This document shows, in pieces, positions 4,887 through 63,777 of a stretch of 64,000 nucleotides of DNA. Position 1 is the first letter of the stretch, and each line of letters begins with the position of its first letter. Source of the DNA: Bilabrum cf. latius (taxonomy: Eukaryota). The translations under genes were made by a program, and so were the position numbers. The notes under the pieces were generated by a model. It saw nothing but the letters and a program-made list of their open reading frames with translations. It was not told where the DNA came from and did not search any database. The stretch lies in assembly GCA_965178125.1 (NCBI GenBank), contig OZ237760.1:806001-870000 (forward strand). Direction: 5' to 3'.

Positions 4887-4921
<35 letters not shown>

Positions 4922-5493: not shown

Positions 5494-6453
5494 TTACGGC
5501 ATCGTGGCGATCCCTAGGACCGGCGGCTCGAGTCCCTTGGTAGCGGGCATCACCTTCAAGATGGGCCCCTTGTGGGTGCCAGAGCCGCACCCGGGCATCG
5601 TCTTGGTCAGGGCCGCGGCGGGGTCCGCGCACTGGATGGCCTTGGTGTTTTTCCACATGCCCGGGCTCGCGAAATCCGTGGGCGACTTGAAAAAGTAGGT
5701 GCGTCCTGCGGATATGAGCTCTTTGCCTGCCGGGGTGGACTTGTTGGGCAGCTCCCCCGCGCCGCCCACAACGTTAAACGACACGACGTCCTTGAGATTT
5801 CCTCCAAGATACGTGTTGTACGCGCGGTTCACAGACTTGGCGGTCTCCAGCAGCAGGAGCGTGGTGGCGCACTTGCTTGCCTGGAAGCGCCTGGCAAGGT
5901 CGATGGCCGTAACGCCCGCGACCCCGCGACCCACCACTGTGAGGCTGCCCCCTGCCGCACACTTCGCATCCTTAACAAATTGCTGCAAAGCGCTGTCGGG
6001 GATACTGTCTGCGGTGCGCCTTGCGAAGTCCGAAGTCTTGCAATCCTTGCACGGCTAGCCTCCCTTGATCACCACCGGTGCAAGCTTCTCGAATTGCGGC
6101 AATGGTGCTGGCCCAGCAGAGGCGTCGGTCACCACGATGATGTTGCCATCCTTGCTGCCCTGGATGTGCGTGATGGTGACGTCCTTCTGCGTTACGGCGC
6201 TCTTTGGTTTCACAGCAGCAGCCGGCCCGCATTTGGCCTTGGCTGCAGGGTCATTCTAGCCGCCACCCACGGCACAGAGCCCCTTGATAGCAGTCTGAAA
6301 TGACTTCATGTCGGCAACCTCGATAGCCGAGGAGTGGCGAAGGCTGCGCGAGTTTACCCGAAGAAGCTTGTCGTGCTGCAGCCGGCTCTCTGAAGCCGCC
6401 CATGCTGAAGCTACAGCAAGGGCTGCAAAGGTAAGTGCCATTGCGCTTCGCAT
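5494..6453 (-). CDS. Predicted secreted protein (~319 aa), possibly a degenerate class-3 lipase fold. In-frame TAGs at 6256-6258 and 6055-6057; ends TAA
   Basis: ORF 6453-6256 (signal peptide MALTFAALAVASAWA) runs in frame through two TAGs into ORF 5988-5494. LTVVGRGVAGVTA and ETAKSVNRAYNTYL loosely resemble lipase_3 motifs. Confidence 0.7.
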
Positions 6454-7176: not shown

Positions 7177-7660
7177 TCAGACGTAGTACATTTCCAGTCC
7201 CATGCCGTCGTGAATTTCGTAGTCTTCAAGCGTAATCTGGTCCTTAAAGATTGTGTACCACTTCTGTAACTTGATCTTCTCTGGTTTTGTTCCTGTGCAT
7301 CTATGGAATACAAATAAGCTGACTACCCGGATAGGACGAAGCCGCGCGGCATGGCATGGACGTACCAAGAAAACCAGAAGAAACCATGTACCGGTGGCTC
7401 ACCAATCTGGGCTGCTACAAGCTTTTTGAGGTCTCCAATTGTATCATCCTCGTTGCACTTTACACGAACTCGCTTCCTGCATCGAAACAAACGAAGAATA
7501 ATCCTAGTTGATGGCGTGTGGATGCCACGACAGAAAAAGGGATAATAAACTCCTCTGAAAACGGCAGAAACGCAGCTGCCAGATGCCTCCAACCCCCTAT
7601 GAGCTGATGCATGAGACTAGTGACTCACCCAAGCCTATCGTTGCATACTACTTCGATCAT
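7177..7660 (-). CDS. UBL5: Ubiquitin-like protein 5 (Hub1), 73 aa. Exons 7660-7629, 7476-7403, 7292-7177
   Basis: Spliced product [73 protein letters not shown], canonical length. GTGAG donors, CAG acceptors, TGA stop. Confidence 0.97.
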
Positions 7661-7932: not shown

Positions 7933-10900
7933 ATGTTGCACCCCAACTATTTGCATATAACGCAGGTTGACTCGAGTGTTCCAGCCCACCTGCGGCTCCG
8001 GAAATTGAACCACTACTTCTTTTCACGCGTTGTAAGTCTCTAGCTGCAATGCTCCACAGCATGTTGGCCGATATATGTAGCTGGGATCGAAACGCCGATT
8101 GTTTTGACCCTGCACCCAAATTTGTATCTACTATCGAGCATTTAATCCGCAGGTAGAACCGCTGGCATACTATGATGTCGGCCAGAATATGTACCAGGTT
8201 GACATGGACGAGAGTAGGACGCTCGTTATGGAGACTGGTGAGCTTACCATCTCTCGACTCTTCCACCTTTTGTTCAGACCTGCCCAGGGCAGCAGTGCAC
8301 GATCAACATACAATTTTTCTCTTTTATACTGGGCACTGCTCTCTCGCAGCTCGCGCCGTCAAGGCCAGCGAGGAGGGCCTCCGCAAGATCGAGCGAGAGA
8401 TGCTCCGCTCGACCAACGTGAGGCACAACCTCACGTACGGGGAGGTGCTCCCGCACTCAGTGGAGCAGAAACTCGTCCCTATGCTGGGCCCCACCTCCTC
8501 CTAGGATGTCTTCTACGACCTGGGCTCGGGCACGTGCAAGATCCCGCTGCAGGTGGCGCTGCAGACCCGCATCGGCGTGTGCAAGGGCATCGAATACGCC
8601 AAGGCCAGGCACGACGCGGCGGTGACTGCCCTGAGGAGACTGAGGGTGGTGGGGGACGAGGAGGTGCACGGGGCGGTGCGCCAGGCCGACCTTAAGTACC
8701 ACCACAAGAAGCTGGCGGGGAGCGGCCTGCAGGGGGCCGCTGGGGCCGTGGACGGCGCCTCCTCGTCCGATTCCGAATCCGACTCGGACATGGTGAAAGA
8801 GGTGGTCAAAGGCAGGGGGAACAGGAACAAGAGGGGCGGGGGGCGGCCGGCTCGGAAGAGGGCCAGGGTGGGTGCCGGGCGAGCTGCCGCGGGCAAGGGC
8901 AAGGGCAAGGGCAAGAGCAGGGGAAAAGGGAGGAGGCAGCTGTGGCGGCAGGATGACGATTTTGAAGATGAAGAAGAGGACGAGGACGCCGCCTTGGACC
9001 GCATGCACAGGGCGCTGGCCCGCCGCAGGAAGCGCCTGGATGCCAAGCGAGCGGCGCAGGGCAAGAGCAAAACAGCCGGTGCCTCCGACGACGACGATGA
9101 CGTGGACATCGACGTGGATGATGCGGCAGTGAGCAGCGATGGCGCACTGGTCAGCACCAGCGACAGTTCGGACGCAGACGACGCCGAGGAGGAAGAAGAG
9201 GACCTGCTGACGGACGCTTAGAAGAAGGAGATGATGCGCCGCAGGAGGGCCAGGAGGAGGAGACAGACCCGCAAGCAGCGGGCCAGGGTGAGGGACTCGG
9301 ATGACGAGAGCGGGGGAGGGGAGGATGGGGAGCTGGGGGAAGTCATGGAGGTGGTGGACATGGCCTCCGCGCCCTCTCCTGCGACCAACTCGATCATCTC
9401 GCTGTCCCCAGGGGGGGACCGGTCCGTGGCAGGTTCCGCAGTGCGCGGCGCCATCGTGGATCTCGCGGGCCGGGAGTCGGACGAGGACAACGAGGGAACA
9501 CCCGCGCGGTCCGTAATGCGCGGCGCCTCTGGTTCCGCAGCCCGCACCCTCTCGCGCAATCCTCCCGCTACAGGCGCGGGTGAGCAGTCTGTGCTGGGCG
9601 CGGGCCAGCTCTATGTTGACCTGGAGGAGGACGAGGACGTGGATGCGGACGACGAAGGCGAGAAGGAGGAGCAGGAGGAGCAGGAGGAGGACGAGGAGGC
9701 TGGGTCCAGGTCGAGGTCCAGGCACAGCAGGGTCGCTCTGCTTGGGGCCACTCCGGGCGGGGGATCCCCGGGGGTACCCCGGCTGTCCCCCTAGGGGGGC
9801 TCAAGCCCCCAGGGGCTGGAGGGGCAGCCCGTGCGCCTCACCGGCATGATCGGGGCGCTTGCTGCGGAGCAAGACCGGAAGAAGGCACAGGCCCGGCGCC
9901 GCGCATTGCGGAACCGGGAGGGCGCGAAGGAGGAGCAGGCCATGCGGGTCGCTCTGCAGAGAGCCAAGGCGACGGAGACAGAGGCCAGGAGAGCGGCCAG
10001 GAGGTCTGCTGCAGGGGCCTCCTGCAGCTCTGGGTCGTGCTCGTGCTGCTCCTCTAAGAGGGGCAGCAGCAGCAGCAGCAGGAGTGCTTCCTCGGCCTCT
10101 TCATCGTCGGCCTCCTCGAGCGGGGTCGCATCGGGGGCCTCCCCCTCTGCCCGCCGGCCCGCCGTCAAGCGCAGGAGAGATGGATCGCCGGCAGCGAGCC
10201 GGAGCGCCCAGCCAGCAGCCGCCTCTGCCCCTGGGCCCAGCGCCAGCCCCCTTCCCGCGGCAGTGGCGCACGCGGTTGCGCGCAAGGGAGCAGCGGTGCA
10301 GGCCCGCAGGTTTCTGCAGGCGAGCACGGGGCTGCTGGCGGCGGCACTGCGCGATGCCAGCAGCAGGACGTATGCCGTGCAGGGGGATTTCTGCAGGTAC
10401 GACCTGACGGACGCGACGATCGTGTTCGTGAACAACGTTTTGTTCCAGGACGCGCTCAAGCAGAGGCTGCTGGCCATCCTTGCTTCGCTGCCGAACGTTC
10501 GCGTGCTCGTGACCCTGCGCAAGCTGTGCTGCCGGCACCGGGCCTTCCACGAGACGAGGAACTACCCGTGCTCTGCCTTTCAGCTGGTCCGGGAGGAGCT
10601 CATCAACCCCACTTGGGACGGGGAGACCACTCTGTTCTTGTACCACAAGGTGAAGACCGTGCCTCTGTCGGAGCAGGACTCGAATTTTGTGGACGAGGAC
10701 GCCGGCCAGGGCAAGATGCAGGCGGGGGCCGACGCGGAGGTGGGAGATCTGGAGGGCGAGCACGAGCACGCGGGTGGGGCACTTGCTTCCGCGGCGGGGA
10801 GCGCGCTGGGAGTCGCGGGCGGAGACGGTGTTGTTCCCTCTGGCAGGAGGCATGGGAGGAAGGTTGGTCTCGTCTCGGCAAAGGGGGGCAAGGGGGGAGC

Positions 10901-14467: not shown

Positions 14468-14598
14468 CATTGTGCGACCGCCAGTGCAGTGCTGCATGCG
14501 ACCAGCCGCGCCTTGGATCACCCGGAGCTAAATTTATCGTGGTCCGTTGGGGGTTTTCTATCTGGTCCAAATTCTTCATTCGACAGCGTGACATTGCA

Positions 14599-26500: not shown

Positions 26501-28272
26501 ACCGGCGCAAGGAGAGGCGCGACGGTGGGGCGGCGGCCTTCTCCCGCGCGCAGGCGGACGAGCTCTTCCACATCGCCAACCGGGAATCGGGGGTGCCTGC
26601 CACCCTGGATGCCATCAGGGAACACCAGGCCTCCAAGGAACAGGCGGCCGTCGCGGCAGCTGCGAGCCCAAGGGGTATCGCCGCCGGGTCCCCCCTCCGT
26701 CGGAAGCGCAGCATGCGCAAGAAGCCTTCCTTCTCCTTCTCCCCGTCGGCTGGCAGGGGAAAGGCGAGGTCGGGGCTGCAACAGACGATGGACGCGGCCC
26801 TGCCACTGGCAGATGCAGTCAGCTCCAGCCCCCGGCGGAACCGACGCGGCACCGCATCGTCCTCCGGTAGCAGGCACCGCGGCAGGAAGCACTCGTCACA
26901 CCAACCGAAGCAGGGCCAGGGTGTGGAGGGCCAGTCGGCCGCGTCCTCCCGCACGGACTAGGGGTGGGCACTGGAGGAGGACGCCGGAGTGGAGAACCCG
27001 GAGGATGCGCTGACTCCAAGAGAGTTCATTGAGGCGATCGTGAGGGTGGCGTGCGCGGTATACGCGGATCTGAGAGTGGGCGCGGTGGCGCGGGAGGGTG
27101 GTCAAACCGCGCTAGAGGCTCTGGAGGATGCAGGTGTCGGCATAGGAATGAGAGCGGGAGAAACGGGAGGGACAGACGCACAAGCAGCAGAGGGGGCGAG
27201 GAGCTTCGACGAGCAGGCACCCGCGCCCATGCACGTGCGTCTGGAATTCATGCTGAGCAGGCACCTGCTGCGGCACGCGAACTCGAGGGAGCCCGGTGCG
27301 TTCCGGGTGGCGCTGGCCCAGGACGGTCCGTAGCTGGTCATCGCGCATTTCTCCAGGCAAATCCGCGCTGTGTTCGAGCACGCGTGCAGGAGCCAGCACC
27401 GGCACTGGGTCAGGCGATACCGCGGTCGCTGGGAGCAGCACCTGGTGCACGTCAGGGAACAGCGGGAGCTGGCTGCCCGCCGGCAGAGGAGGAGGAACTT
27501 TGGCATCGCGGGATCGCGGGGGAGCGGAAAAGGGAAGGGTAACACCGGGGTACCTGGTGGTGTAGATGCCTCCGGCATGCCTCCGTCCATCTTCCGGTCC
27601 AGCACCATGCCTGACAGGCCGCAGGGCAGGTAGGACCGGCTGAGAAGCGCGTCCGGTCAGGAGTAGGAGCAGGAGCAGGATCTCGATGCCGGGATGGATA
27701 TCGTGGACGTCAAGAACGGGGGCTCAGGAGGTGCGGTCGGGTGGAGGGGCGGCCCTGATGGCCGGCAGTCAGCTCCCCTTGACGTGGGTGAAGGCGAGGG
27801 GGGGGGTGCGACACCCGATGAGGAGGATGCAGTGCCGCCGCCCCCCAAGCGAGCCCTTGTTCTCTGGGGCTGGATCCGGTGCCTCAAGTTCCTGGGGGTG
27901 CTGGCTCCGAAAGGGGGTCAGCTCACCGCGGGGGGCGGGCGCAGGCTGCCGGCCCGGCGAGCTGACGGGAGGTGGGGCCTGTTGTCTGCCAAGCACGCCG
28001 CCCGCATCTTCAGCAACTGTCAGAGCGAGGAGGAGGAGCAGCAGAACGAGGAGGAGGGGGAGGGGGGGGAGGGTGGGGCAGGCCCGACCGTGGGGATGCA
28101 GGCAGGGGCTGGCGATAGTCCCGCCCGAGACGCAGACGATGAGATGGTGTTCCCCGAGTTCGTGGAGGCGCTGTGCGCCACTGCAAACTTTGTTGTGAGG
28201 GAGCCGCAGCTGCCGGCGGAGACGAGGCTGGAGCTGTGCTTCCAGCATGTGCTGCCTGCCGTGCGAGGGTGA
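14599..28272 (+). CDS. Very large (~4557 aa) uncharacterised protein, mostly low-complexity, with a coiled coil and C-terminal degenerate EF-hand-like segments; 16 in-frame TAGs
   Basis: ORF-track pieces 14452, 15154, 16489, 17782, 19189, 22396, 23137, 23821, 25132, 26989, 27370 and 27694 share one frame. TAGs at 14893, 15136, 16306, 17716, 19093, 19096, 22336, 22348, 23113, 23803, 24919, 25114, 26959, 27331, 27631, 27664. Motifs MSSSQFMRLLKDCRVL, LTPREFIEAIVRVA, MVFPEFVEALCATA. Ends TGA. Confidence 0.8.
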
Positions 28273-36945: not shown

Positions 36946-38364
36946 ATGCGCTCAAGAAAGCGCGAAGCGAGCCATGACAAGGTTTCATCTGCTCGGCTCG
37001 GCAGCGGCACATTCTCTGGTGCATTCACTGCTATGAAGAGCGGCAACTGCAATATTCTGGTTGCCTGCGTGGGTTTGGCGGTTCTCTTGAGCACTACCTT
37101 TTACTTGGGGCGCCAATCAAACGGGGCAGCTCTGCAATATCCAGAAGATTTGTCGCTGCGTTCCGGTCAACAGACTACCAGAGCTCGAATGGACGATCAG
37201 AATACAGACAGTATTGGACCTAGCTTTGTTGAGCCAGCCGTGATGGGTGCGCTGGAGGACGACGACATCCGGTGCGCTGCAAGGCTGCTGGTGGAAGCCA
37301 AGCAACATATAAAGCCTGTCCTCGTTCCTAAGGACGTCATTGGGCTGAGCTTGATTTTCTGTGGCAGTTCCGGAAGATCATACTTGGAGTACGGTAGCGG
37401 TGGTTCCACTCGAATGGCCACTGCTTCAAAGATGCTGCACGACAATGGGGGCGGACAGCACAGCGTGCTCATGGTGGAGGGCAGCCAACACTTTCTTGCC
37501 ACTTTGGCAGACAAGCTGTCGGCGGATGTGACCAGGCTGCAGCCAGGGACTCCGCCCCTCGTGTACTCTACGGCCCCCTTGCTCGGCCCCCTTGCTCCTT
37601 GGAGCTACCCGGTTGGTTCGAAGCAGGTACGGAACAAGCACGGGGTGGCAACATCGAGCGATACCAATGTGTTCATGCATTCCTACCCCATCTACTCGAA
37701 GGGAGGCCAGGAGATGATGCGCCAGTCCGCCCTATTCACCCCTTCGAACCCGCCTCCCCTTCGCCCAGGATGGCCGCAGAGGGTATTTGGCAGGCCGGCC
37801 AGCCGCCAGGACAGGGACGTACCGGAGTTCGTGTTCGTGGACGGCCGATTCCGAGTTGCCTGCGTGCTCCGGGTGATCAAGGAGTGGGGAGACGTTCCCT
37901 TGATTATGATGGACGACTTCAGCGCGAGGGAGTGGCAGTTCGGTACGGTGCTGAGGTTCTCAAGGCCATGGCTAGGGCTGGACACCTTCGTGAGGCAGGG
38001 CGTAGCCTCCATGATGAAGATGGCAGAAGATGGAACCACTGGAACGGCACATCGCAAGCCGGTGTCAGCTGAAGAGCTGCGCGAGCACTTGGAGCCTCTG
38101 TCCGAGCTGCCCGTAGTAGGGCTGGAGGAGGCCAAGCAGTACACTGACACGCAGATGCCCAAGTTTTTGTCCAAGATCCTGAAGAAGGCAGGCCCCGCTC
38201 CAGCCGGTTTCCTCAACGACAACTTCTTGGAGCAGTCGGAGAAGATGTCCCTACGAAGCATGGGAATGCAGAGGGCTCTCTGGTTCAGGGGCTTGCCCAG
38301 GGGGGAGCGGGACGAGGCGGCGCTAGATGCAGCGATCGAGGCGTTCAGCTTCATCGCGCAGTGA
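36946..38364 (+). CDS. Type II membrane class I SAM-dependent methyltransferase-like protein (472 aa; start could be the later ATG at ~37034)
   Basis: TM segment ILVACVGLAVLLSTTFYL; motifs YLEYGSGGST and FVFVDGRFRVAC..MMDDF. No TAG; ends TGA. Confidence 0.7.
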   Translation: MRSRKREASHDKVSSARLGSGTFSGAFTAMKSGNCNILVACVGLAVLLSTTFYLGRQSNGAALQYPEDLSLRSGQQTTRARMDDQNTDSIGPSFVEPAVMGALEDDDIRCAARLLVEAKQHIKPVLVPKDVIGLSLIFCGSSGRSYLEYGSGGSTRMATASKMLHDNGGGQHSVLMVEGSQHFLATLADKLSADVTRLQPGTPPLVYSTAPLLGPLAPWSYPVGSKQVRNKHGVATSSDTNVFMHSYPIYSKGGQEMMRQSALFTPSNPPPLRPGWPQRVFGRPASRQDRDVPEFVFVDGRFRVACVLRVIKEWGDVPLIMMDDFSAREWQFGTVLRFSRPWLGLDTFVRQGVASMMKMAEDGTTGTAHRKPVSAEELREHLEPLSELPVVGLEEAKQYTDTQMPKFLSKILKKAGPAPAGFLNDNFLEQSEKMSLRSMGMQRALWFRGLPRGERDEAALDAAIEAFSFIAQ

Positions 38365-38672
38365 TGATGGCAGGCGCATTGATCGTTTGAATGACCCTCG
38401 AATCCACGACAGAGCGAGCCAGATCGCGCACGCGTCAACTACAACCGCGTTGACGATAAGCCTATACTGCAGCAGACCAACATTGCAGTATAAGATACCA
38501 CACCTGCGTGACACTTTGACTACCAGCCTTGTCTAGAATAGACCTATAGCCCTATGGGGACCACTGGTGGCACTATAATGCCGTGCAGGTCAGGATCACG
38601 CCTGTGGCATCCTGTTTTTACCCATAATCTCGAGTCTGTTCAACAGTCAACTCCACAATCAATATTAAAGAT

Positions 38673-39715
38673 ATGCTTCGGCGCGCATGCGTTGGATGCA
38701 GGGCGTTTGCACAGCGTTCCAAGCCCATGCTGCGGTGGCAATCCTCTCTTCGTGGGCCACCAGCCTCGTCGATCGAGGCACGGACTGTCCGGTTCGCTGA
38801 CATGGAAGGTAACTAGCAGTTTGGAGTGTTGATTGATGGTGAGTTTAAGCTGGACGTACGATGCTCGTGTTGCATGAAGCGCACTGCCGTCCACGCAACC
38901 ACCCAAAGATCCCACATCAACGCCCCGCAGAAGCGACAGGCAGGTGGGCCAATTCCATATGGAGAGATGATAACGGGTAGATTCAGGTTGGCGACGACAA
39001 GATCGAGGTAGGCCTAATCATGCCGCCCGTGGACCCACCGGCAATCTTTTGCATTGGCCTGAACTACCTAAACCACGCCGCGGAAGTCAAAATGGAACCG
39101 CCCAGGCGGCCCGTGGTGTTCATGAAAGCAAACTCGTCGGCAGTTGGCCACCTGAATCACATTGTTATCCCAGAAGTGTGCTAGAAGCCGCCCGAGGTGG
39201 ACTACGAGGCGGAGCTGGCAGTTGTGATCGGCCGTGAGGCCCTCAACGTCTCGAAGGAGGACGCGCTTGACTACGTGCTGGGATACACATGTGCTAATGA
39301 CGTGACCGCGCGGCGATGGCAGGGCAAGAAGGGCGGCGGGCAGTGGGCGAGGGGCAAGTCTTTCGACACGTTCGCTCCCTTGGGGCCGTGGGTGGTCCCC
39401 GCCAAGCTCATTCCCGACCCGCAGGCCCTCCGCATCCGCACGATTCTCAACGGAAAGGTGGTCCAGGATGGTAACACGAGCGACATGCACTTTGGGGTGG
39501 CAGAGCTCATCGAGTTCTTGTCACAGGGCACCACGCTGCACCCCGGGACAGTCATCCTGACGGGCACTCCTGCGGGCGTGGGGTACACGCAGGACCCCCC
39601 TGTGTTCCTCAAGGCAGGAGACACGGTGGAGGTGGAGATCGAAGGGGTGGGTAAGCTGACAAATCCGGTTATGGAGCAGCAAGGTGACGTGCTAGTCGGG
39701 GGGCAGAGGATATGA
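38673..39715 (+). CDS. FAHD2: Fumarylacetoacetate hydrolase family protein (FAHD2-like) with predicted mitochondrial presequence. Intron 38839-38930; in-frame TAGs at 38814, 38978, 39182
   Basis: [12 protein letters not shown]... presequence; [77 protein letters not shown]. Ends TGA. Confidence 0.9.
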
Positions 39716-39798
39716 GTCCTTGTAAAGCCTTTGATTTGCTTGGTTCATGGTGCCGAGACTGATCACTGGTAGGATCTATCAGCAACAACACACCCCCT

Positions 39799-42700
39799 TT
39801 AGTGAGCCCCGCTTGGGACCTGAAGCCCACCCACGGAGCTGACCGACCCCCGCCGGCCCCCCGCCGCCCTCTTTGGCGCCATCTGCCTTGCCCCCCCCTC
39901 TGCCGCCAGGGCCGCGAGGCCGGGCAGCAGGTCGGGAGCGAGAGGCCCGTCGTGGGACCGTGCGCTGTTGGGCTGAGGCTGCTCTTGCCCTAGCTCGTGA
40001 TCGCGCTCGAGCGTGTACCCGCTCCTCTCGTGTGCTCTAGCCGCTGCATTGCTCCCGCCCAAACTCCCACTCCCACTCCTACCGCCAGCTGGCCCCCACA
40101 GGCCCCTCGCGCTGTTCCTCGCGCTCCCCTCCACGGCTGCCTCCACGTCAGCCGCAGTGGGCTCCAAAGCTGCAAGTCCCAGCAGCGGTACTTTCCCTCC
40201 CCCCACCCTAGGGGAGGCCCCTGCCCCCGCCCCCGCCCCCGCCCCTCCTGCGCGTGGGGACACCACCCCGACCGACCCTCCACCCGTGGACCCGTACAGG
40301 TCTCCGTCCTCGGGAGGCAGCGGCTGCACCGCGGGCCCGCCCCCTCGCTGCCTCTCGCCCCTTCTCGCTGCCCGCAGCCTCTGCCGCGCCGCTCCCACCT
40401 GCACGCCTCCTCCATCTGTCCCAGCCGGGTGCTGCGCCTACCATGCTGGTTCTCCCGCCCTGCCCACGGGGAATCCACCCGCCCGCCTCGCATCCGCACC
40501 TGCACCTGCACCCGGCGATTTGACTCCTCCTCCCCCCGGCGATGCCCCGGAGCCAGGCGCAGGACCGTCTTCGGCTGCGATGAACCGCAGCAGCTTGGGG
40601 CTGGTGATGGAGTTGCGGCGGAGCCTGCCTCCCTGCAGTCGAGGGGAACGGGAGGAAGAGGCGGTGGAGGCAGAGGGGGTATTCATTTGTGCCCTGGCCT
40701 GGGCCGCGTCTCGCTTCCTCCTGCGGATGGAGGGGCTCTGCAGCAGAGAGGGGGACCCGCTGGGCTCCGGACTGCCCGCCCCCCTGCGCCCACCCCTTCT
40801 TCCCCGTGTTCCCCGGCGCTGTGCATCCGTACTGACTCCGAAGGACCCGTCCCCCTGTAGCCCGACGATGCCCGACAGCTCCGATTCAGATCCAGGGGAG
40901 AAAGAGTCCAGGCCCGGGCGGCCCTTCCGCCTGCCCCGGCCCCGACTGCCCCCACTCCCCTTGGAGAGCGTGGGCAGCCGAGACGCAGACCCTATCTTCT
41001 TGACTGGCGAGGCCCAGACGCCTCCCCGCTCCTCCACCTCCTGCTTCCTCTCCATCGCACCACCGGGGACCAGGTGGGGCGAGGGTGATGCTGCCCCGAG
41101 ACCCCTCTGCTGCAGCCTCATCTGCTGCCTCGCCCTCGCCCTGGCCCTCACCGCAGACGACCTCGACTCCAGCGAGCCGCCCATCACTGACACAGCCCCC
41201 GGGCTGTCGAAGGGGTCTGCCTTGCTCTCCGATCCACCTGGCCCGGCCTTGGTGTCGCCCCCCTCGCCCCCCTCCTCCCCGCGGGGTGACCCGGACACGA
41301 GCGCGGCTGCCGTGTCCCCCATCTGTGCCAGCCGCTTGCGCAGGGCGGCCACCTCCCGCCGCCAGGCCGCCTCTCGCCGCGCCGCCTTGCCCGCCGCTTC
41401 CTGCGCTCCCTCCAGCTGCCCGCGGAGCCTCCTCAGCGCCCGCTCGCTCACCTGAGTGGCCCGCAGCACCAGCGCCTCCGACTCCTGTTCCTGCTGCCTG
41501 ACCCGCGCCCTGGCCCCGCTCGCCTCCCGCCTCAGCCGCTGGAGCTCCTCCCTAAGACTCGCCGCCTCTTGTCGCGCACGACGGGCCGCCTCCCCCGCCG
41601 CCCGCGCCTCTTGCCGCGCCTTGGCGGCCCCCCGCCCCGCAGCCGCCCCACGCTGGCGCACGGCCTCCACCTGCCCCTCCGCCGCCTCCGCCCGTCCCTC
41701 GGCCTCGTCTCGCTGCCGCCGCAGCTGCACCTGCGCGTCGTGCGAGCCCCGCAGCCTGCGCTCCGCCAGGGACGCCCGGTCGTCCGCCTCCAGCCGCTCC
41801 GCCTCGGCCCGCCTCGCCGCGTCCCTCGCCCCCAGCGCCCTCCTCCTCCACTTCTCCGCGTCCCTTGCCGCCCTCCGCATCTCGCCCTCGAAGTAGCTGG
41901 CGTCCGCTCTCGCCAGCCTCAGCTCTTCGCCGCTGGCTGGGGCCCCGCGCTCCAGCGCCTCCCGCTCGGCGGCCCGCGCCCTGTCCCGCTCGGAGTGGGC
42001 CCTGCGCACCGCGTCAGCAGCGGCCTGCAGCCTGCGCTTGGCCTCGGCCACAGCCTTTTCGTAGGCCTTGCGGGCCCGGGCCGCGAGTGCCCTTGCTTTC
42101 CTGGCCTCGGCGCGCGCCGCCTCCGCCTCTGCCTCCAGCTGCTGCCTCTGCTCCTCACGACGGGCCTCTGCCTCGGCTTGATCCTCTTTGCCCTTCTCCT
42201 GCTCTGGATCCGCAGCGTTGTCTCCTCCAGTGTCGCTCTCCTGCCCGGGGGACCCCGTACCCCCGATGGAGCCCAGCACACTCCTCCTCGCGTCCTCCGC
42301 CGCGCGCCTGGCCTGCTCCACCGCCTTTTCGGGGGACAGCGCGGGGGCAACGGTGGTGGCGGGACTCAGGCTCAGGACCGCGCTGCCCCTGCCGCCGTCT
42401 CTGTCCACTCGCTGCCCGGCGCTGCCCGGCGTGCTGGGTGGCGGCGGGGACGAGGAGGAGGTGGAGGGAGCGGGCGGTGCTGCGGCTGGGGCCTTGGCCT
42501 CGGGCTGCGCCTCTTCGTCTTCCCCGTGCCCCGACGAAGGCATCGGCTCTAGCTGGGCCAGCAGCAGTCCCTCCACGGACTGCAGACGAGCCAGGCGCAC
42601 GGCCCGGTCCCTTTCCCTGCCCCGCACAGCCGCCTCCAGTCTCTCCTCCGCTGCAGCCGCCCTCCTCCGCGCATCCACGAGGGCCTCCTGCGCCGCCGTC

Positions 42701-44208
42701 ACCTCAGCTCGAAGCGCCGCCCGCGTCTACCGGCCGGATCGGCGGGAAGAATCCACCGCCCCCGCGGAGGAGGGCCGCCCCGCGCTGTTCCCTGGCCCCG
42801 CACCACCACCACGGCTCTCTCGCTCATCGTCGTCCTCGCTGTCGCTGTGCCCACCCGGGCCGCCGCCCCGTGCCGTTCCACTCGACCGGCCCATCGGCCC
42901 CGGGGACCCCACAGACTCCGATCGATGCCTCACTCCCGGCCCATGCGGACCCCCATCATCCCTTGCCGCGCCCCCGCTCCCCACGCTCCCACTCAGCGCG
43001 CTCTCGATCCCCCTCCTCGTCCTGAGGGCACCATCAGCCGCCTCCCGCGCCGCCTTCAGCTCGCCCTCCAGCTCCTCGCCCCTGCGCCGCTGCCGCTCCA
43101 GCTCCCCCTCGGCCTCGGCCAGCTGCTTCGACACCGCCTCGGCCTCCCGAACCGCCGAGGCCCTCTTCTCCTCCGCCGCCTGCCGGCCCTCCTCCGCCTT
43201 TTCCGCCTCGCCGGCCGCCCCCGCCGCCCTCTGCTCCGCGGCCTGCCTCTCCCCCAGGGCAGCGGATCGCGCCCTCTCCGCGGCCTGGAGGGCCTCCTTG
43301 AGCGAAGACACCTCGCCCATCAGGCGACGCGCCGCTGCTGACTGCTTGGACGCGCTGCTGATGCTGCTTGGGCTCCCGTGGCCAGACCCGGCCTCTGTTG
43401 TGCCCCGCCTCGGGCTGCGGCCGCCCACCGACTTGCCGTCGACGCTGAGCGCGCCCGTCTCGGACTACTGCTCCTCTTTCTGCTCCTGCACCGCCGCCGC
43501 CGCCGCCGCCGCCGCCAGTTCTTCCTGCAGCCGGGCGCTCTCCTTCCGCGCCTCCTCTGCCTCCTGCCTGGCCCCATCCCTCTCCTTCCGCGCCTCCCTC
43601 GCAGCCTTGAGGGCCTGCCCAGCCTCCCGCCGGGCCTGCGCCAGGGCGTCCTTGGCCTCCCGCAGCTGCTCCCGCAGCCGTCCCGCCTCCTTCTGCGTCT
43701 CACCCCCCGAAAGCCGCCCCGCCTCGGCCTGCCGCTCGGCGTCGTCGCGCGTGCGCCGCGCCACGGCCAGCGCAGACTCCAGCTCCTCGATGCGTCGATC
43801 CCTCTCCCTCCCGCTCTGAGCCAGCTTGCGGGAGAGCCGCGCCTGTGCCTCTGCTTCCTGCTCCGCGGCTCGCGCCTTTCGCTTGGCTTCGCTCACGTCC
43901 CGCAGCAGGGCGTCGAACCGGTTCCGCATGCGCTCGTACTCGGCGGTGCGAGCGGCCACCACGCGCTCCTTGGACTGCAGGTCGCGCCACCTCGCATCCA
44001 GCGATCCGCCCTGCGGTGCTGCAGAAGAGCCCGACCTCGGGCTGGAGCCGTGGAGGTGGCTACGGGCGGATCCAGGCGCGGCATCGCCGGCCCGGGGTGA
44101 CCGGGCCGAGCCGCGGCCAGCCTAGGAAGCGCCTATGCGTGGGGATGCCCCTCGATTCGAGCTGCCACGGGACAGCGCTGATGCGGTGAGTTTCGGCACG
44201 TGGGCCAT
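39799..44208 (-). CDS. Long Ala/Arg/Glu-rich coiled-coil protein (~1469 aa); in-frame TAGs at 44122, 43465, 42727, 40438; ends TAA
   Basis: ORFs 43962, 43428, 42702 and 40404 (minus strand) are co-frame and joined by TAGs. ATG at 44208 has an upstream in-frame TAA. AT-richer sequence follows the terminal TAA. Confidence 0.78.
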
Positions 44209-44669
44209 CAGATTTCGTCGTTAACAGCAGCCAGCACGGGCCAGCGAGAGAAAAAACTAGGCGGCCAACGGACAGCTGGCTTTTCTCTCGCTGTGCTTAT
44301 AATAGCATGCTACAACTCATACGTCTTTATGTTCACTATATAGTTTACCCGGATCCTGTTCAATCGTGCTCCAAGCGTGTGTATTTGTCGCTAGGTTCCA
44401 AAACGGTTGATTTCGCAACGGACAGCTCGAGCGGTGACGAGTGCGGCAGACACAGCACCAGGCTGCTTTGGTGGCAGTCCTCAGATTGTCTCTGGTATTG
44501 AATTGCGTGCGAAAAACTCTATTTTCTCTCTCTCTTTCTCTCTCAGGCTGATGCTGGGGTAGATGCTGCGCTCTTTGAGTATGCAACCCGCTCGCTCTAA
44601 TCCGAGGCTTCTGTAGCACTCATCCACAAACACAACTGGCCATCCAGCCGCCCGGATCCATCCCTCGCC

Positions 44670-46094
44670 TCACCGGAACTCGCCCTCTTTCCAAGCAGCC
44701 GGCTCGGGCTTGTCCAGCTTGGCCGCTAGCCTCACCTCGATCTCGCGCATGAACTCGAACGTGTTGAGCCAGTGCTTGCGCTCCATGGCCTTGCCGTGGA
44801 TGCACAGGGCCAGGTCCTTGGTCATGCGCCCGTCCTCCACCGCGGACACGCACGCGTTCTCCAGGGCCTTGGCGAAGTGGACCAGCTCCGAGTTCTTGTC
44901 CAGGAGGCCCCTCTGCTCCAGAGCGCGGGTCCACGCGAAGATGCTCGCGATCGGGTTGGTGCTGGTCTCGCTGCCCTTCTGGTGCTGCCGGTAGTGCCTC
45001 GTGACAGTGCCGTGGGCGGCCTCCGCCTCGAAGGATCCGTCCTCGGCGGTCAGCACGCTCGTCATGAGGCCAAGGGAACCGAACGCTTGGGCTACCTGGT
45101 CGCTCATCAAGTCACCATCATAATTCTTGGCCATCCATAGCAGCCCTCCGCTCTGCTTGAGCACGAAAGCAACCATGTCGTCGATCAGCCTGTGCTCGTA
45201 CCAGAGGCCCTTGGCCTCGAACTGGTCCTTGAACTCCTTCTCGTACACCTCGGCGAAAATGTCCTTGAAGCGGCCGTCGTACGCCTTGAGGATCGTGTTC
45301 TTGGTGCTCAAGTAGGCCGGCATGCCCCTCTCCAGCGCGTACCTGAGCGAGCTGCGCGCGAACCCCCGGATCGAGTCGTCCTCGTTGAACATGCCCATGG
45401 CCACGCCGCCGCCCGCCGGGAAGTCGTGCACGCAAAAGGTGCGCGGCTCAGAGCCGTCCGCCGGGGTGAACTTGAGCTCCAGCTTGCCCGCGCCCTTCAC
45501 CACGAAATCGGTCGCCTTGTACTGGTCCCCGAAGGCGTGCCTCGCGATCACGATGGGCTTGGTCCATCCGGGCACCAGCTTCGGCACGTTCTTGATCACG
45601 ATTGGCTCCCTAAACACCGTGCCGCCCAGCTCGTTGCGGATCGTGCCGTTCGGGCTCTTCCACATCTTCTTGAGGCCAAACTCCTTCACGCGGGCCTCGT
45701 CTGGGGTGATGGTGGCGCATTTGGTCGCCACCTTGTGCTCCTTGATGGCGGCTGCCGCGTCTAATGTGACCTTATCGTCTGTCTTGTCGCGGTTCTCCAT
45801 GCTCAGGTCAAAATATACCAAATCGACGTCCACGTGCGGCAGAATCAGCTTTTCGCGGATCATCTGCCAGATAATTCGGGTCATCTCGTCGCCGTCCAGC
45901 TCCACCACTGCGAAGACAGGAGGCGTTACAAATATCAGAGGAACAGCCCGAGCATTCCGCTTGATCGCGTTGCGACGTCTGCCACAGTAGTCCGAATGCC
46001 AGGAACAGCACATTCTACCGACGCTCTCTGGCGTTGACTCACCCTTTCCCTCTACTTTAATCTTTCCTGAGCTCCCACCCGCGACTGCTGCCAT
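44670..46094 (-). CDS. IDH1: NADP-dependent isocitrate dehydrogenase; intron 46042-45908
   Basis: After splicing, [21 protein letters not shown]; also [49 protein letters not shown]. No TAG; ends TGA. Confidence 0.96.
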
Positions 46095-46648
46095 TGTCTT
46101 GCTGAAATGCCGGGATTGCACCCCTTGATCGAGAGGTGCTTTGTACGGTTATGGTTTCGATATAATTAAAGTGCATTGCACTGATATGCGCACCCAACGA
46201 CTTGGAACACGATCGGGCTCTTTCCGTCCGTTATCAGGCGTAGATTAGTTTAGTGAGTGTGCATGTCGTGAAATAATGATACAATGGACCGTGATAGTGG
46301 GCGGTTGTACCGGATGCTCTCGTCACGACTGCTAGTGCGCCGTGTTTCGCTGCGACTTGATTTCAACTGCAACCGGACCGGCAGCCGCCCAGACAGCCAG
46401 CTCGCGCGGATATTCCGCAATCAGATACGTATACGATTGAGCTGGGGTCGTGCGTGACATGATCATTGCAGCTGCGCATTTCGTTCGCCTGCTCTCTGCT
46501 TCATCGCAGGCAAGCAAAACCGGCAGCACTCTTCGATTGGCCTGCCGCGCAGGGTCTTGGAGAGAGCGGCGACCAGTCTTGCAAGCGGCAAGACCCTAAG
46601 AACGATTTAATTACCCGCTAATCCGGCGCATTACACAAAGAGGTCGGC

Positions 46649-58864: not shown

Positions 58865-61800
58865 TCAGCTACCCTCCGGCAAGGATATCGCATCCCTTGC
58901 GTACACCAAGGCTGGCTCCTTGGCAGCCAGCACGCTCGCCCTCGAGCCACTTCCATCCACGGTGCCCTCGCCACTGCCACCCGCGGGGATCGCTGCGACA
59001 GGGCTCTAGCCCCCCTCGGCGGGTGCGAGATGGTGCGGCCCTTGAGGCTGCCCGTATGCCCTGGCATTCCGCAGCTTTCTTTTCTTCTCAGCTGGCTTGC
59101 CCTCTATAGGTGGAGAACCGCTGCTGCCGCCCGCCGACCTCGACTCAGGTATCGAGCCCCTCACCGAGCCCCCTTGCACGGATCCCTCCATGGATCCCTG
59201 CACAGACCCGTGCATGGACCCGTCAATCGATCCCCTGAAAGAGCTCTCCACGGATCGACTCATCATGGACGCGCCAGTCATGCTGGTGCCTCGGCTCGCA
59301 GCCGTGACAGGAGCCCCGATGAGTCCACCGAGCTCGTGACCAGGATTGCCCGGGGAGCCTCCCGCGGCCTCTCCCCGTCTGCGCCTCGGGGCCTCCTCTG
59401 CGTGCGCGTCTAGCCTAGCTGTCACATCGATGCCTCCACTTCGCTGTGCTTCAGTTGGGTGTGCCGGACCTGGTACCTGGTTCCCGTGATCGGCCTCCAG
59501 CTAGCTGTGCCCGCTCGCCCAGGCCGACTGGCTGCAATACGCCGGGCTCACGGCGAAGGAGCTCCCCTCCCTGCTGGATCCACTTCGCTTGCCCTTTTCG
59601 CTTCGGCTTCGGCTGTCTGACTGCGTGCCCCGCTAGGTAAGGCCCCACTTTGGGAGTTTCCTGAACTGCGAAGAGATGTGCATGGACGCGAGTGAACCGC
59701 CTCGGCTGCCAGACATCCCAGAGTGCATGGACGTCTCTGCATCCGAAGCAGCCTCTGCAATGGTTCCAAGGCTCTCTCCTCCATCACCCGGCTCTTCCCC
59801 CTGCCCTATGATCCCTTCGCTCTCGCTGGACCGCGTGGGGCCCTCGGGGACATCGCCATTCGGAATGGGCCTCGGGTGCTGTGTGCTGCCTGCTGGCTTC
59901 GATACTCTTGTCTCCTGCATAGTCAGACGGCGCAGTCCGTTGGCTCCCTTGTCAATCACTATGTCAGTGGGTGCACCGTTGGGAGCGGGCACAGCCTCAC
60001 CGGCATCACTTGATCCGCTGGGCTTGGGCAAGGGCACGAGACCAGCCGCTTCAACCTGCACGGGCAGCTTGCTGCCGCCCGAGTGCGCTGAGCCTGTTTT
60101 CTGCTTTTTGTTCCTGTCGGTAAGTGGATGTGCCCTGCCCGTTGGCCTGGTTCGTGGGGCCGGCAGGGGCACCCGAAGAGAAGGGACTTCCTCAGCTGCT
60201 CGCTCGTCCATGACGCGGTAGTCGAACCCTTCAATGTACGCGATGGCCTGCTATGCATTTGCAGTCTTCTCGCCATCAGCCGAATTTATCCAGTCCCCAT
60301 CTGCGACTCTCGAATGCGCGCCATTGCCTCTGTCACTGCCATTCCCTGAGTGGAAGATCTCGATGGAGGCGCTCTGCGCAGCTGCCCTCATGCTAGACTC
60401 CACGTCCGCGTTTGTCTTGCGGCTGCTCTCTCTCTTGCGCGGACCTTCCATGATATTCCTGTCACTGGTGGTCTCGGCCTCAGACGCTTGCGTTGTGCCG
60501 CTTCCGCTCGAGCTGCCTGGTACAGTTGAGCCTTTAGCGCGAAGGAAGCGAGCATGCCCGACCGCGGCCTCCCCACGACTGCCCCTGGACGAATTGGACG
60601 ATGTGCGGCCAGCAGCAGAGCCAGCCCCAACGACAACCTTGGCTTTCGATGGATTGCGTTCGATTGATTTCTGCGCGACGCGAGCCAGCTGCAGCATGTG
60701 GGAGAGTGTCCTGGCTCCCGCTCGCTTCTGGGCCCGCCCGATCACGCCATCTTTCCGGATGGCAGCTGCCTCTGCCGTAATCTCCCGCCCACCTAGATCT
60801 GCAGGAGTGAGTGAGGCCGCACTACTCGGATGCGTGCTTTTCTCGTCAACGCTGGCCGCCCTGCTGCGATTGAGGAGCCCCCTCGGCGGCCCCCTTCCCA
60901 CCGGCGAGCCTGCCCCGCTCTGCCTCCTCCCGAGCCACAGGCCCTCGCCTTTGCGCGCTTTTGCCGCGCTCAATGGCGCTCGCATCGTCGCGAAGCTTCG
61001 TCTTCGCATCCGATCGGACGGCATGGCTTGCTAGCTCTTCGTCTTGCGGATGCCCCCAGCTGCTTGATGCGGCAGTTGGGGGGCGAGCCGGGACTGCAGC
61101 CCCGCCAAAGACAGCCGCTCGCTGGAGGCAGGAACCCACGGGGGTGTTAGCAGTCTCGCCCTGAGTGCTTGCCAGTCGATTTCCTCGAACCACGGGTGCT
61201 CCATCACCTCCTGGATCCCATCGCCCCCGAGCCGCCAATGCTCGTTGCAGATGAGCAGCCTCTCCACGAAGTCCAGGCCCTCCTTGGATGGTTTCGGGGG
61301 AGGGATCGGGACTTCTCCGGCGCCAGGGCTTAGCAGACCCTACATAGTGCCGATACTAGATTTCTTCTTGCTCTTCTTGAATTCGGCCTCGTGCATGGAC
61401 CTGGTACCCTTGAGCCCTCCCCGACTGGCAGCCATGACCTCGGCAGCGATCTGTGCCTGCTCCTCGCTGTCGTCCAGGGTGCACCCAAAGACCACTCCTA
61501 TGGAGCGCCACCGCTTACGCTGGGCTTTGACTAGCACCCGCTGAGCCACGCTCCTCTCTAGGACCGCCTTGGCAGGGATAAAGCTGCGCATGCGCACCAT
61601 CGTCTGGATGCTCTCGCGGTCTGCCGGATACGGCCGCGTCCCAAACAGCAGCTAGTGCACCGTCACTCCAAGTGCATACATGTCAGCCATTCGATCGTGC
61701 TTGCGGGTGCGGACAAACACCTCCGGGGGCATGAAGTGCAAGGTGCCGCTCAGTCCCCGCGAGCTTGGGGCTTCGGCGCTCGATTCTCGGCGCACGCGAG

Positions 61801-62479
61801 CACTCACCCCAAAATCACCGATGCGAACAAAGCCATCAGAATCAATCATGAGATTTTCAGGCTTTACGTCTCGGTGAATGATGCCACGGGCGTGGAGATC
61901 GGCCAAGGCAAGCACAGCTTGGGCGGCATAAAATTTTGCAGCGTACTCGGGCAACCGCCCGAACGCCTGCCCGTGTGCCAGCCAGAATAGATCGCCGCCT
62001 GTGCATAGATCCATGACAAGGTATGCATTTTCTCTGTCTTGGAACGCGAAATGGAGGTTCACGACAGAAGTGCTTCGGCTCGTTGCCTGAAGCTCCCTCT
62101 CCAAGACAAGGCGCCGAACCCGCTTTGGCGAGAGAGTTGACTTGTCAATTACTTTCATGGCATACACGATATTGTTTCGGAGCCATTTGACGGCATACAC
62201 GGACCCGAATCCGCCCTGCGATACCAAAAAGAAGTTATGCTGAGGAGCGTGCTAAGGCGCACAGGGAACTCTGCATGGCGAGCAGAGCGTCAGAGCGCCA
62301 CTCACTGATCCAATACTGCATATTTGCTCAAATTCGTACAGCTTCTTTGCCGATAGTTGGGAGAGTGTGCGCCGATTTGGCTGATCCATGCGATGCGAGG
62401 TCTGCCCTGTAGGGTTAGGGGGGTCTGGTCCGTCATACTAGCCTGCAGACGCACCAACACTACTCGTCCCGCACCCCAT
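58865..62479 (-). CDS. AGC-group Ser/Thr protein kinase with N-terminal MGCGTS acylation motif and long disordered C-terminus. Intron 62305-62216; 8 in-frame TAGs
   Basis: IGS|GGFGSVY spans the intron; YAMKVI, HRDVKPEN, DFG, GTLHFMPPE, DMYALGVTVH*LLFGTRPY, DFVERLL..RLG..HPWF. TAGs at 62438, 61652, 61340, 61031, 60251, 59633, 59501, 59006. TGA at 58865. Confidence 0.9.
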
Positions 62480-63719: not shown

Positions 63720-63777
63720 GTGAGAAGCCAACGATCCCAGCCCCAGTTGGCGACGGTGGTGCAGACGCCCCCGCCAG

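What the first reader, a model, noticed from the sequence alone, without database searches (positions are those of the whole stretch)
39790..39810. UAA appears to remain a stop, so UAG and UAA are uncoupled
Seen: no in-frame TAA inside any modelled gene although CAA is common. Two genes end in TAA (39799 and 5494) and 15 in TGA. Established: most nuclear stop reassignments change UAA and UAG together (ciliate-type code). UAG-only changes are rare, e.g. UAG=Gln in the fornicate Iotanema spirale. Inference: this may be an independent origin, predicting an eRF1 that reads UAA/UGA but not UAG, plus a tRNA-Gln(CUA) without a UUA partner. Neither gene is in this window. Caveat: both TAA-ending genes lack a conserved C-terminus to confirm the end.
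Basis: partly seen in the sequence, partly recalled or inferred. Interest (0 to 1): 0.85.

Follow-up and report, generated by a model that had tools for sequence, protein, structure and literature searches.

The report
UAG reads glutamine, UAA still stops
This GC-rich microbial eukaryote reads the stop codon UAG as glutamine but seems to keep UAA, like UGA, as a stop, a rare but already described kind of genetic code that here turns up in a lineage where it has not been reported.

Summary
The window is compact, intron-poor, 66% G+C eukaryotic nuclear DNA. Fifteen long ORFs (18,387 codons) carry 62 in-frame TAG, 0 TAA and 0 TGA; 13 end in TGA and 2 in TAA, at 5494 and 39799.

- **TAG is glutamine.** Both TAGs of the window's FAH gene align, without gaps, with CAG in a 75%-identical metagenomic orthologue, L001. 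L001 itself uses TAG as sense. One of its TAGs sits at the conserved Q of GQxKMSKS in TyrRS.
- **TAA behaves as a stop.**
  - About 16 in-frame TAA would be expected in the window plus L001 if TAA were used like CAA. None is seen.
  - No TAA has coding-like sequence on both sides in frame.
  - Third-position G+C drops right after both terminal TAAs.
  - An 84%-identical homologue of the 5494 gene ends at the same residue.
- **Not testable here.** The eRF1 sequence, the tRNA set and genome-wide stop usage could not be checked, because no genome is held.

The code type (UAG=Gln; UAA and UGA stop) is already known from Iotanema and several ciliates. This is therefore a new member of a known kind, probably an independent origin.

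The parts
39799..39801 (-). TAA that ends the 1469-codon coiled-coil ORF; the finding's focal codon
   Evidence: The 11 codons between it and the next in-frame TGA have G+C at the third position in 5 of 11, against 0.81 in the gene body (binomial P=0.008; 0.034 against the last 100 codons).
39763..39765 (-). Next in-frame TGA, 11 codons beyond the TAA; this would be the stop if TAA were read through
39802..44208 (-). Coiled-coil protein ORF with 4 in-frame TAG (codons 29, 248, 494, 1257)
   Evidence: P0242 is 89% identical over 241 aligned residues (query 83-321) and lies on the same 11,287-base public contig as an IDH homologue. TAG codon 248 falls on Q if a one-residue gap is placed.
5494..5496 (-). 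TAA that ends the 319-codon secreted-protein ORF
   Evidence: Read-through would add 66 codons with third-position G+C in 35 of 66, against 0.74 in the body (P=2e-4). Homologue P0241 (84% identical) ends at the same residue.
5497..6453 (-). Secreted-type protein ORF, no Pfam family, 2 in-frame TAG (codons 66, 133)
   Evidence: Codon 133 aligns with K in P0241, next to an indel.
38930..39715 (+). Last exon of a fumarylacetoacetate-hydrolase-family gene; in-frame TAG at 38978-38980 and 39182-39184; TGA stop at 39713-39715, 83 bases from the convergent TAA
   Evidence: Pfam 2.1e-80. Intron 38838-38929 shown by spliced contigs. Both TAG align with CAG of L001 in an ungapped 261-residue alignment, and both proteins end at the same residue with TGA.
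7177..7660 (-). Hub1/UBL5-like gene; 3 exons (7660-7629, 7476-7403, 7292-7177); 73 codons; TGA directly after the C-terminal ..LEMYYV
   Evidence: Read by eye. The likeness to UBL5 and its length are recalled, not tested.
61652..61654 (-). In-frame TAG inside the AGC-kinase domain (codon 276 of ORF 58865-62479)
   Evidence: Pfam Pkinase 5.3e-51 over residues 88-431. The TAG aligns with E in the three printed RSK2 chains.
8502..8504 (+). In-frame TAG inside the DOT1 methyltransferase domain (codon 152 of ORF 8049-10973)
   Evidence: Pfam DOT1 3.2e-13. The TAG aligns with E of chain 8fjm_A.

Best explanation
The organism, and at least one environmental relative, uses a nuclear code in which UAG is read as glutamine while UAA and UGA end translation. 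This is the assignment listed as NCBI table 15.

**Shown**
- UAG is sense and stands for Gln.
- UAA is absent from reading frames.
- UAA stands at two ORF ends, one of them a conserved C-terminus.
- UGA is the usual stop, as expected at 66% G+C.

**Inferred from established knowledge (PMC5304391)**
- A tRNA-Gln with anticodon CUA, one mutation away from CUG, pairs with UAG but not with UAA.
- An eRF1 that has lost UAG recognition still recognises UAA and UGA.
- Neither molecule was seen here.
For: **TAG is sense**
- 62 in-frame TAG in 18,387 codons, as many as in the off-frames.
- TAG lies inside the kinase, DOT1 and FAH domains.
- Listed pieces of contigs that show spliced introns cover 5 TAG codons without any difference: two in FAH and three in the coiled-coil gene.

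**TAG is Gln**
- In 4 of 5 comparisons with close homologues or conserved sites the partner is Q: FAH twice (TAG against CAG), L001 TyrRS GQxKMSKS, and P0242 (needs a one-residue gap).
- The fifth comparison gives K.

**TAA is not sense**
- 0 in-frame TAA in 18,387 codons of the window and in 3,506 codons of L001.
- Expected numbers are 10.2 and 5.9 if TAA:TAG followed CAA:CAG. The joint Poisson probability of seeing none is 1e-7.
- No domain-bearing protein is interrupted by TAA.
- No TAA outside the ORFs has coding-like flanks on both sides.

**TAA as terminator**
- Two ORFs end in TAA, and the coding bias is lost directly after each.
- P0241 ends at the same residue as the 5494 gene.
Against: - Only two TAA ends were seen, among 17 gene ends in the window. 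In L001, 0 of 5 ends are TAA.
- For the focal TAA at 39799 the next TGA is only 11 codons away, and no homologue covers the C-terminus.
- The stop codon used by P0241's gene is unknown. If it were TAG, the shared end would also fit a code with both UAR read as Gln.
- In L001 one frame (12624-13853, +) is open for 410 codons across a TAA at 13146-13148. Its coding signal is weak and it has no Pfam match. It remains unresolved.
- The zero count of in-frame TAA is partly by construction.
- One TAG aligns with K, and two align with E in distant homologues.
Confidence: 0.8

Rival explanations
1. Both UAA and UAG are read as glutamine (ciliate-type, table 6) and UGA is the only stop. TAA is simply too rare in a G+C-rich genome to appear in 64 kb, and the two TAA-ended ORFs really run on to the next TGA.
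For: - TAA is rare in every frame: 36-59 per 21,333 triplets.
- TGA ends 15 of 17 genes in the window and 5 of 5 in L001.
- The next TGA after 39799 is only 11 codons away.
- One open frame in L001 runs across a TAA.
Against: - About 16 in-frame TAA are expected from the CAA:CAG ratio and none is seen (P about 1e-7). This includes L001 at 55% G+C, where CAA is 24% of CAR codons.
- Third-position G+C falls after both TAAs (P=0.008 and 2e-4).
- A homologue ends at the same residue as the 5494 gene.
Confidence: 0.08
2. UAA is neither a regular stop nor a sense codon. It is avoided or nearly unassigned, or it is read according to context. The two TAA ends are then rare or leaky terminators, or their gene models are wrong at the 3' end (for example a missed last intron).
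For: - Only 2 TAA ends were found in 64 kb, and none among the 5 ends of the lower-G+C relative.
- Introns do exist in this genome.
Against: - The 5494 gene and its homologue end at the same residue, which a missed intron would not predict.
- The coding signal stops at both TAAs.
- 2 of 17 is an ordinary share for TAA in a genome at 66% G+C. This last point is general knowledge, not tested here.
Confidence: 0.08
3. UAG has a double meaning: it is sense inside genes and a stop at gene ends, as in Condylostoma-type context-dependent codes. UAG and UAA would then not be truly uncoupled.
For: With TAG read as sense, any TAG that really terminates a gene would be hidden by the model. Some in-frame TAGs have weaker coding scores downstream.
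Against: - None of the gene ends that coincide with a homologue's end is TAG. These are window FAH against L001 FAH (both TGA), the 5494 gene (TAA) and L001 TyrRS (TGA).
- L001 Arp3 and PKA, and the window's Hub1, also end in TGA. That their ends are conserved is recalled, not tested.
- The ORFs run on for hundreds of codons after their TAGs without any TGA or TAA.
- The sample is small.
Confidence: 0.04

Closest known systems
Iotanema spirale (Fornicata) nuclear code: UAG=Gln, UAA and UGA stop (PMC5304391; abstract and passages read)
   Same: Same assignments: UAG to glutamine, no in-frame UAA or UGA, and UAA and UGA at gene ends. The same mechanism is inferred: a tRNA-Gln(CUA) and an eRF1 that ignores UAG.
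   Different: - There UAA is the predominant stop; here TGA ends 15 of 17 genes.
- That organism is an anaerobic metamonad known from a transcriptome. This one is a 66% G+C, intron-poor genome that groups elsewhere in a RAD54B tree.
- The evidence there rests on 730 alignments; here it rests on 64 kb plus 14 kb.
Ciliates with UAG-only reassignment to Gln: Protocruzia tuzeti and two phyllopharyngean lineages (PMC11687900; passages read)
   Same: UAG to Gln with UAA kept as a stop. These cases show that the variant has arisen repeatedly.
   Different: No named ciliate RAD54B appeared among the listed best matches. High G+C and multi-kilobase genes packed on long contigs do not look like a ciliate macronucleus, though that comparison is recalled and was not tested.
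UAG-only reassignment to other amino acids: rhizarian exLh (Leu) and Scotinosphaera (Ser) (PMC5304391, PMC11687900; passages)
   Same: UAG and UAA are uncoupled, and UAA and UGA are kept as stops.
   Different: The amino acid differs. Here the partner is Q in 4 of 5 close comparisons, never L or S.
UAR=Gln codes (table 6): many ciliates, hexamitin diplomonads, some ulvophytes, Streblomastix, Amoeboaphelidium (passages)
   Same: UAG is read as glutamine.
   Different: Those lineages also read UAA as Gln. Here there is no in-frame TAA where about 16 are expected.
Phage 'genetic code 15' (crAss-like and Lak phages; search listing and abstracts only)
   Same: The same table: TAG=Gln, with TAA and TGA as stops.
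   Different: That is a bacterial translation system with RF1 and RF2 and phage-borne suppressor tRNAs, not a eukaryotic nuclear genome with a single eRF1.

Membership tests
UAG=Gln / UAA+UGA=stop nuclear code (NCBI table 15 type, as in Iotanema) | In-frame UAG inside conserved protein-coding genes | tested here: met
   62 in-frame TAG in 15 ORFs. TAG lies inside the Pkinase, DOT1 and FAA_hydrolase matches.
UAG=Gln / UAA+UGA=stop nuclear code (NCBI table 15 type, as in Iotanema) | UAG positions correspond to glutamine in homologues | tested here: met
   4 of 5 close comparisons give Q and 1 gives K. Two distant comparisons give E. The sample is small.
UAG=Gln / UAA+UGA=stop nuclear code (NCBI table 15 type, as in Iotanema) | No in-frame UAA or UGA in coding sequence | tested here: met
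   0 TAA and 0 TGA in 18,387 codons of the window and 3,506 codons of L001. The scan of all 276 TAA found none with coding flanks on both sides in frame.
UAG=Gln / UAA+UGA=stop nuclear code (NCBI table 15 type, as in Iotanema) | UAA stands at bona fide ends of coding sequences | tested here: met
   Two ORFs end in TAA. One end matches a homologue's end to the residue. The other is supported only by the loss of coding bias.
UAG=Gln / UAA+UGA=stop nuclear code (NCBI table 15 type, as in Iotanema) | UAG is not used as a terminator | tested here: inconclusive
   No gene end that coincides with a homologue's end is TAG, but only a handful of ends could be judged.
UAG=Gln / UAA+UGA=stop nuclear code (NCBI table 15 type, as in Iotanema) | tRNA-Gln with anticodon CUA present, and no tRNA with anticodon UUA | not testable with these tools
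   No tRNA gene in the window or in L001. No genome is held.
UAG=Gln / UAA+UGA=stop nuclear code (NCBI table 15 type, as in Iotanema) | eRF1 N-domain altered in the motifs that read the stop codon (GTS, TASNIKS, YxCxxxF) | not testable with these tools
   eRF1 is not in the window or in L001, and there was no way to pick this organism's eRF1 out of the unnamed protein libraries.
UAR=Gln code (table 6, ciliate type) | In-frame UAA at glutamine positions | tested here: not met
   0 observed where about 16 are expected.
Context-dependent codes without a dedicated stop (Condylostoma or Blastocrithidia type) | All three stop codons, UGA included, occur in frame | tested here: not met
   0 in-frame TGA, against 110-271 per off-frame.

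The most novel reading that the evidence does not exclude
A whole, so far unrecognised clade uses UAG=Gln with UAA and UGA as stops. The clade would comprise this organism, a roughly 85-95% similar organism or second haplotype seen in public assemblies, and the 55% G+C metagenomic contig L001. These are intron-poor, mostly G+C-rich heterotrophic eukaryotes, possibly stramenopiles near labyrinthulomycetes. It would be the first stop-codon reassignment reported for a stramenopile nuclear genome and a further independent origin of the uncoupled code. Having both a high-G+C and a mid-G+C member would allow a test of how base composition shapes the choice between UAA and UGA once UAG is lost as a stop.
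Probability: 0.35. Interest if true: 0.7.

Novelty: new member of a known kind. Interest (0 to 1): 0.55.

Why it matters
Uncoupled UAG and UAA show that a single eukaryotic release factor can lose one of the two UAR codons without losing the other. Each independent origin adds a natural eRF1 variant and a natural tRNA-Gln(CUA)/GlnRS pair for comparison.

This case adds three things:
- a non-ciliate, non-metamonad lineage;
- a strongly G+C-rich genome in which UGA, not UAA, is the main stop;
- an environmental relative that shares the trait, so the change is older than one species.

It also matters in practice. Standard-code gene calling shatters these genes. In L001, ORFs of at least 200 codons sum to 2,400 codons under the standard code and to 5,621 codons with TAG read as sense. 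Treating TAA as sense as well (table 6) would wrongly extend or fuse genes.

Tried and rejected
- **Whole genome.** None is held for this window. Genome-wide stop usage, eRF1 and the tRNA inventory could therefore not be done.
- **RNA genes.** No tRNA by ARAGORN and no Rfam family at gathering score, in the window or in L001.
- **Sequencing runs.** No RNA holder is listed as such. Three runs of unrecorded library type gave contigs with spliced introns. No listed piece covers 39716-39798 or the TAA at 39799; the table was cut, with 737 pieces not shown. The 3' end of that transcript was therefore not seen.
- **Protein Atlas.** The search with the 36946-38361 protein gave only unnamed clusters and no useful taxa.
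- **Pfam on small ORFs.** Ten small ORFs in 55.9-58.7 kb gave no match.
- **GTDB genome contigs, searched with IDH.** All 80 loci kept were bacterial, at 70% identity or less. No relative was found.
- **Metagenome FAH scan.** Of 80 loci, the 54 of at least 3 kb were screened for the TAG-sense signature. Only L001 shows it clearly.
- **Aphelid idea (UAR=Gln in Amoeboaphelidium).** Dropped. L001's TyrRS matches the PDB chains I recall as plant, apicomplexan and kinetoplastid (E 1e-136 to 1e-126) far better than those I recall as human and yeast (1e-34, 1e-28). The organism behind each chain is recalled. The RAD54B tree does not place the window near opisthokonts.
- **Same organism as Iotanema or the rhizarian exLh.** Rejected, because both use mainly UAA as a stop.
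- **Literature.** Six of the seven literature searches sought a published G+C-rich or stramenopile case of UAG=Gln. None was found in the held library. only sought the source for Scotinosphaera. Supplementary tables of PMC5304391 were not seen.
- **IDH for placement.** IDH is too conserved to place the organism.
Full report
**What the window is**

The window has 66% G+C and clearly eukaryotic genes:
- a RAD54B-like SNF2 helicase (846-5240)
- a DOT1 methyltransferase (8049-10973)
- an FAH-family hydrolase (38930-39715)
- an NADP isocitrate dehydrogenase (44670-46121, minus)
- an AGC kinase (58865-62479, minus)

I also read a three-exon Hub1/UBL5-like gene by eye (7177-7660, minus). Genes are tightly packed and introns are few and short, with GT..AG ends. 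Contigs of three public runs skip 38838-38929 in FAH and 45908-46042 in IDH, while the DNA run X1 does not. No whole genome is held for the window, so everything below rests on 64 kb plus what could be fetched from elsewhere.

**TAG is a sense codon**

- With TAG read through, fifteen ORFs of 284 to 4606 codons appear. Together they hold 18,387 codons, with 62 in-frame TAG and no TAA or TGA.
- In the five other frames of the same stretches TAG occurs 62-82 times, TAA 15-39 times and TGA 110-271 times. In frame, TAG is therefore as frequent as by chance, while TAA and TGA are excluded.
- TAG lies inside the kinase domain (codons 276 and 380 of a match spanning 88-431) and inside the DOT1 and FAH matches.
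- Listed pieces of the intron-spliced contigs cover the two FAH TAGs and three TAGs of the 39799 gene without a single difference. The TAGs are therefore neither assembly errors of one data set nor visibly edited. The library type of those runs is not on record.

**TAG stands for glutamine**

A scan of metagenome contigs with the FAH protein returned L001, a 13,854-base contig at 55% G+C whose FAH is 75-77% identical.

L001 shares the code.
- Its ORFs of at least 200 codons sum to 2,400 codons under the standard code and to 5,621 with TAG as sense.
- Its longest ORF grows from 432 to 1,142 codons.
- None of the other 53 loci of at least 3 kb behaves so (54 of 80 loci screened).
- Its genes are a WD40 protein, FAH, an actin-related protein, TyrRS, a TMEM175-like channel and a PKA-like kinase.

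Comparisons at TAG positions:

| TAG site | Partner | Residue |
|---|---|---|
| Window FAH, first TAG | L001 FAH, ungapped alignment | Q (CAG) |
| Window FAH, second TAG | L001 FAH, ungapped alignment | Q (CAG) |
| L001 TyrRS, GLKEGxGKMSKS | Three best solved TyrRS chains | Q |
| Window 39799 gene, codon 248 | P0242 (public assembly) | Q, if a one-residue gap is placed |
| Window 5494 gene, codon 133 | P0241 | K, next to an indel |
| Window kinase, codon 276 | Distant solved chains | E |
| Window DOT1, codon 152 | Distant solved chain | E |

Four of five close comparisons give Q, and none gives L or S.

**Is TAA a stop?**

The count of zero in-frame TAA is partly circular, because TAA delimited the ORFs. 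Four further tests bear on it.

1. *Expectation.* If TAA were a glutamine codon used relative to TAG as CAA is to CAG, I expect 62 x 110/666 = 10.2 in the window and 19 x 26/84 = 5.9 in L001. The joint Poisson probability of seeing none is 1e-7. L001 matters here because CAA is 24% of CAR codons at 55% G+C.
2. *Codon-usage scan.* I scanned all 276 TAA triplets of the window in their own frames. One has coding-like sequence on both sides, and it is off-frame inside the largest ORF. None lies outside the ORFs. By the same test 39 of 60 in-frame TAG pass. The in-frame TAAs just upstream of nine ORF starts lie in segments with third-position G+C of 0.37-0.60, against 0.67-0.89 in the ORF bodies.
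3. *Loss of coding bias after the two terminal TAAs.* For 39799, third-position G+C is 5 of 11 in the codons up to the next TGA, against 0.81 in the body (P=0.008; 0.034 against the last 100 codons). For 5494 it is 35 of 66, against 0.74 (P=2e-4).
4. *Homologue of the 5494 gene.* A full HMMER search of 1.84 billion representative proteins found exactly one relative, P0241, at 84% identity. Its sequence ends ..PPVLGIAKMA where the window's ends ..PPVLGIATMP, which is the same last position.

For the focal gene at 39799, the only homologue found (P0242) covers residues 83-321 and not the C-terminus.

**What speaks against or stays open**

- TAA ends only 2 of 17 genes in the window and 0 of 5 in L001.
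- The stop codon of P0241's gene is unknown. If it were TAG, the shared end would also fit a code with both UAR read as Gln, although the loss of coding bias argues against that.
- In L001 one frame (12624-13853) stays open for 410 codons across a TAA at 13146-13148. The flanks score weakly, the spot is A+T-rich and there is no Pfam match. I could not decide between a gene end followed by a new gene in the same frame and a sense TAA.
- No tRNA gene lies in either sequence, and eRF1 was out of reach.

**Mechanism**

UAG as Gln, and UAA and UGA as terminators, are shown at the level of sequence statistics and homology. The rest is inferred from passages of PMC5304391:
- a tRNA-Gln(CUA), one substitution away from the CUG isoacceptor, which pairs with UAG but not UAA;
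- an eRF1 whose N-domain no longer accepts UAG.

I put the table-15-type code at 0.8. Rivals are table-6-type with invisible TAA at 0.08, avoided or leaky TAA or wrong 3' gene models at 0.08, and dual-meaning TAG at 0.04.

**Who is it?**

- IDH was too conserved to tell.
- RAD54B matches at most 59% identity in unnamed environmental proteins and about 50% in named green and red algae, animals and one labyrinthulomycete.
- I built a FastTree of 53 rows: the window, all 17 best unnamed hits, and 35 named or project-labelled hits. The other 68 of the 120 listed hits, mostly animals and lower-ranked unnamed proteins, were left out.
- The tree places the window in a supported group (96) of 19 rows: 17 unnamed sequences, the window and Hondaea. 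This group lies apart from plants, red algae and animals.
- That Hondaea is a stramenopile is my own knowledge. One gene with one named neighbour is a hint, not a placement.
- The organism is neither Iotanema nor the rhizarian exLh, because both end most genes in UAA.

**Comparison with the literature**

I read the abstract and passages of PMC5304391, and passages of PMC11687900. The other papers were seen only as search listings or abstracts.
- UAG=Gln with UAA kept as a stop is described for Iotanema spirale, Protocruzia tuzeti and two phyllopharyngean ciliate lineages.
- UAG=Leu is described for a rhizarian and a ciliate, and UAG=Ser for Scotinosphaera.
- Six searches of the held library found no report of this code in a stramenopile or any G+C-rich non-ciliate eukaryote. 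The organism's name is hidden from me, so I cannot exclude that its code is published.

**Verdict**

The claims about origin, eRF1 and tRNA remain predictions. This is a new member of a known kind of code, of moderate to good interest. It also carries a practical warning: table 15, not table 1 or table 6, should be used to annotate this genome and L001.

Noticed in passing
L001 1-13854 (metagenome contig): An environmental relative at 55% G+C shares the TAG=sense code: 19 in-frame TAG in 3,506 codons of six genes, whose five complete ends are all TGA. The reassignment is therefore a trait of a clade and not of one species.
   Followed up: yes
L001 12624-13853 (+): This frame is open for 410 codons with one TAA (13146-13148) and five TAG. 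The coding score is weak and there is no Pfam match. It is either a TAA-ended gene followed by another gene in the same frame, or a possible in-frame TAA in the relative.
   Followed up: partly
window 39716-39798: Only 83 bases separate the stop codons of the convergent FAH gene (TGA at 39713-39715) and the coiled-coil gene (TAA at 39799-39801). Their 3' untranslated regions must overlap or be very short.
   Followed up: no
window 44557: Contigs of three runs from two studies (X5, X6, X7) all begin at 44557, 113 bases beyond the IDH stop, each with 15-61 unaligned letters beyond that point. This may be the poly(A) site. It is only a weak hint, because contigs cannot show transcript ends.
   Followed up: no
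window 44486-46121 and 43245-43962; proteins P0006, P0242: One 11,287-base public contig encodes an IDH that is 95% identical and a coiled-coil protein that is 89% identical, so gene order is kept. Run X1 also holds contigs about 85% identical to the window's IDH gene at roughly half the depth. This points to a close relative, a second haplotype or a segmental duplicate in the same sample.
   Followed up: partly
window 14452-28272 (+): A 4606-codon ORF with 16 in-frame TAG and no Pfam family. It is rich in low-complexity Ala, Gly, Ser and Arg stretches.
   Followed up: no
window 63774-64000: A tandem array of a 48-base unit, 4.7 copies at 99% match, runs off the right end of the window just after the UBA-domain gene.
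   Followed up: partly
window 2-843 (-): A gene that runs off the left end. By eye it resembles an enoyl-CoA or steroid 5-alpha reductase with an N-terminal ubiquitin-like exon (not tested against Pfam). An in-frame TAA at 472-474 appears to lie in its intron.
   Followed up: no
window 56114-56932 (-): Short exons whose translation looks like a C2 domain (for example ..GKSDPYI..) and end in TGA. Pfam found nothing on the single exons.
   Followed up: partly
window 38362-38367: Two TGA codons in tandem end the 36946-38364 gene.
   Followed up: no
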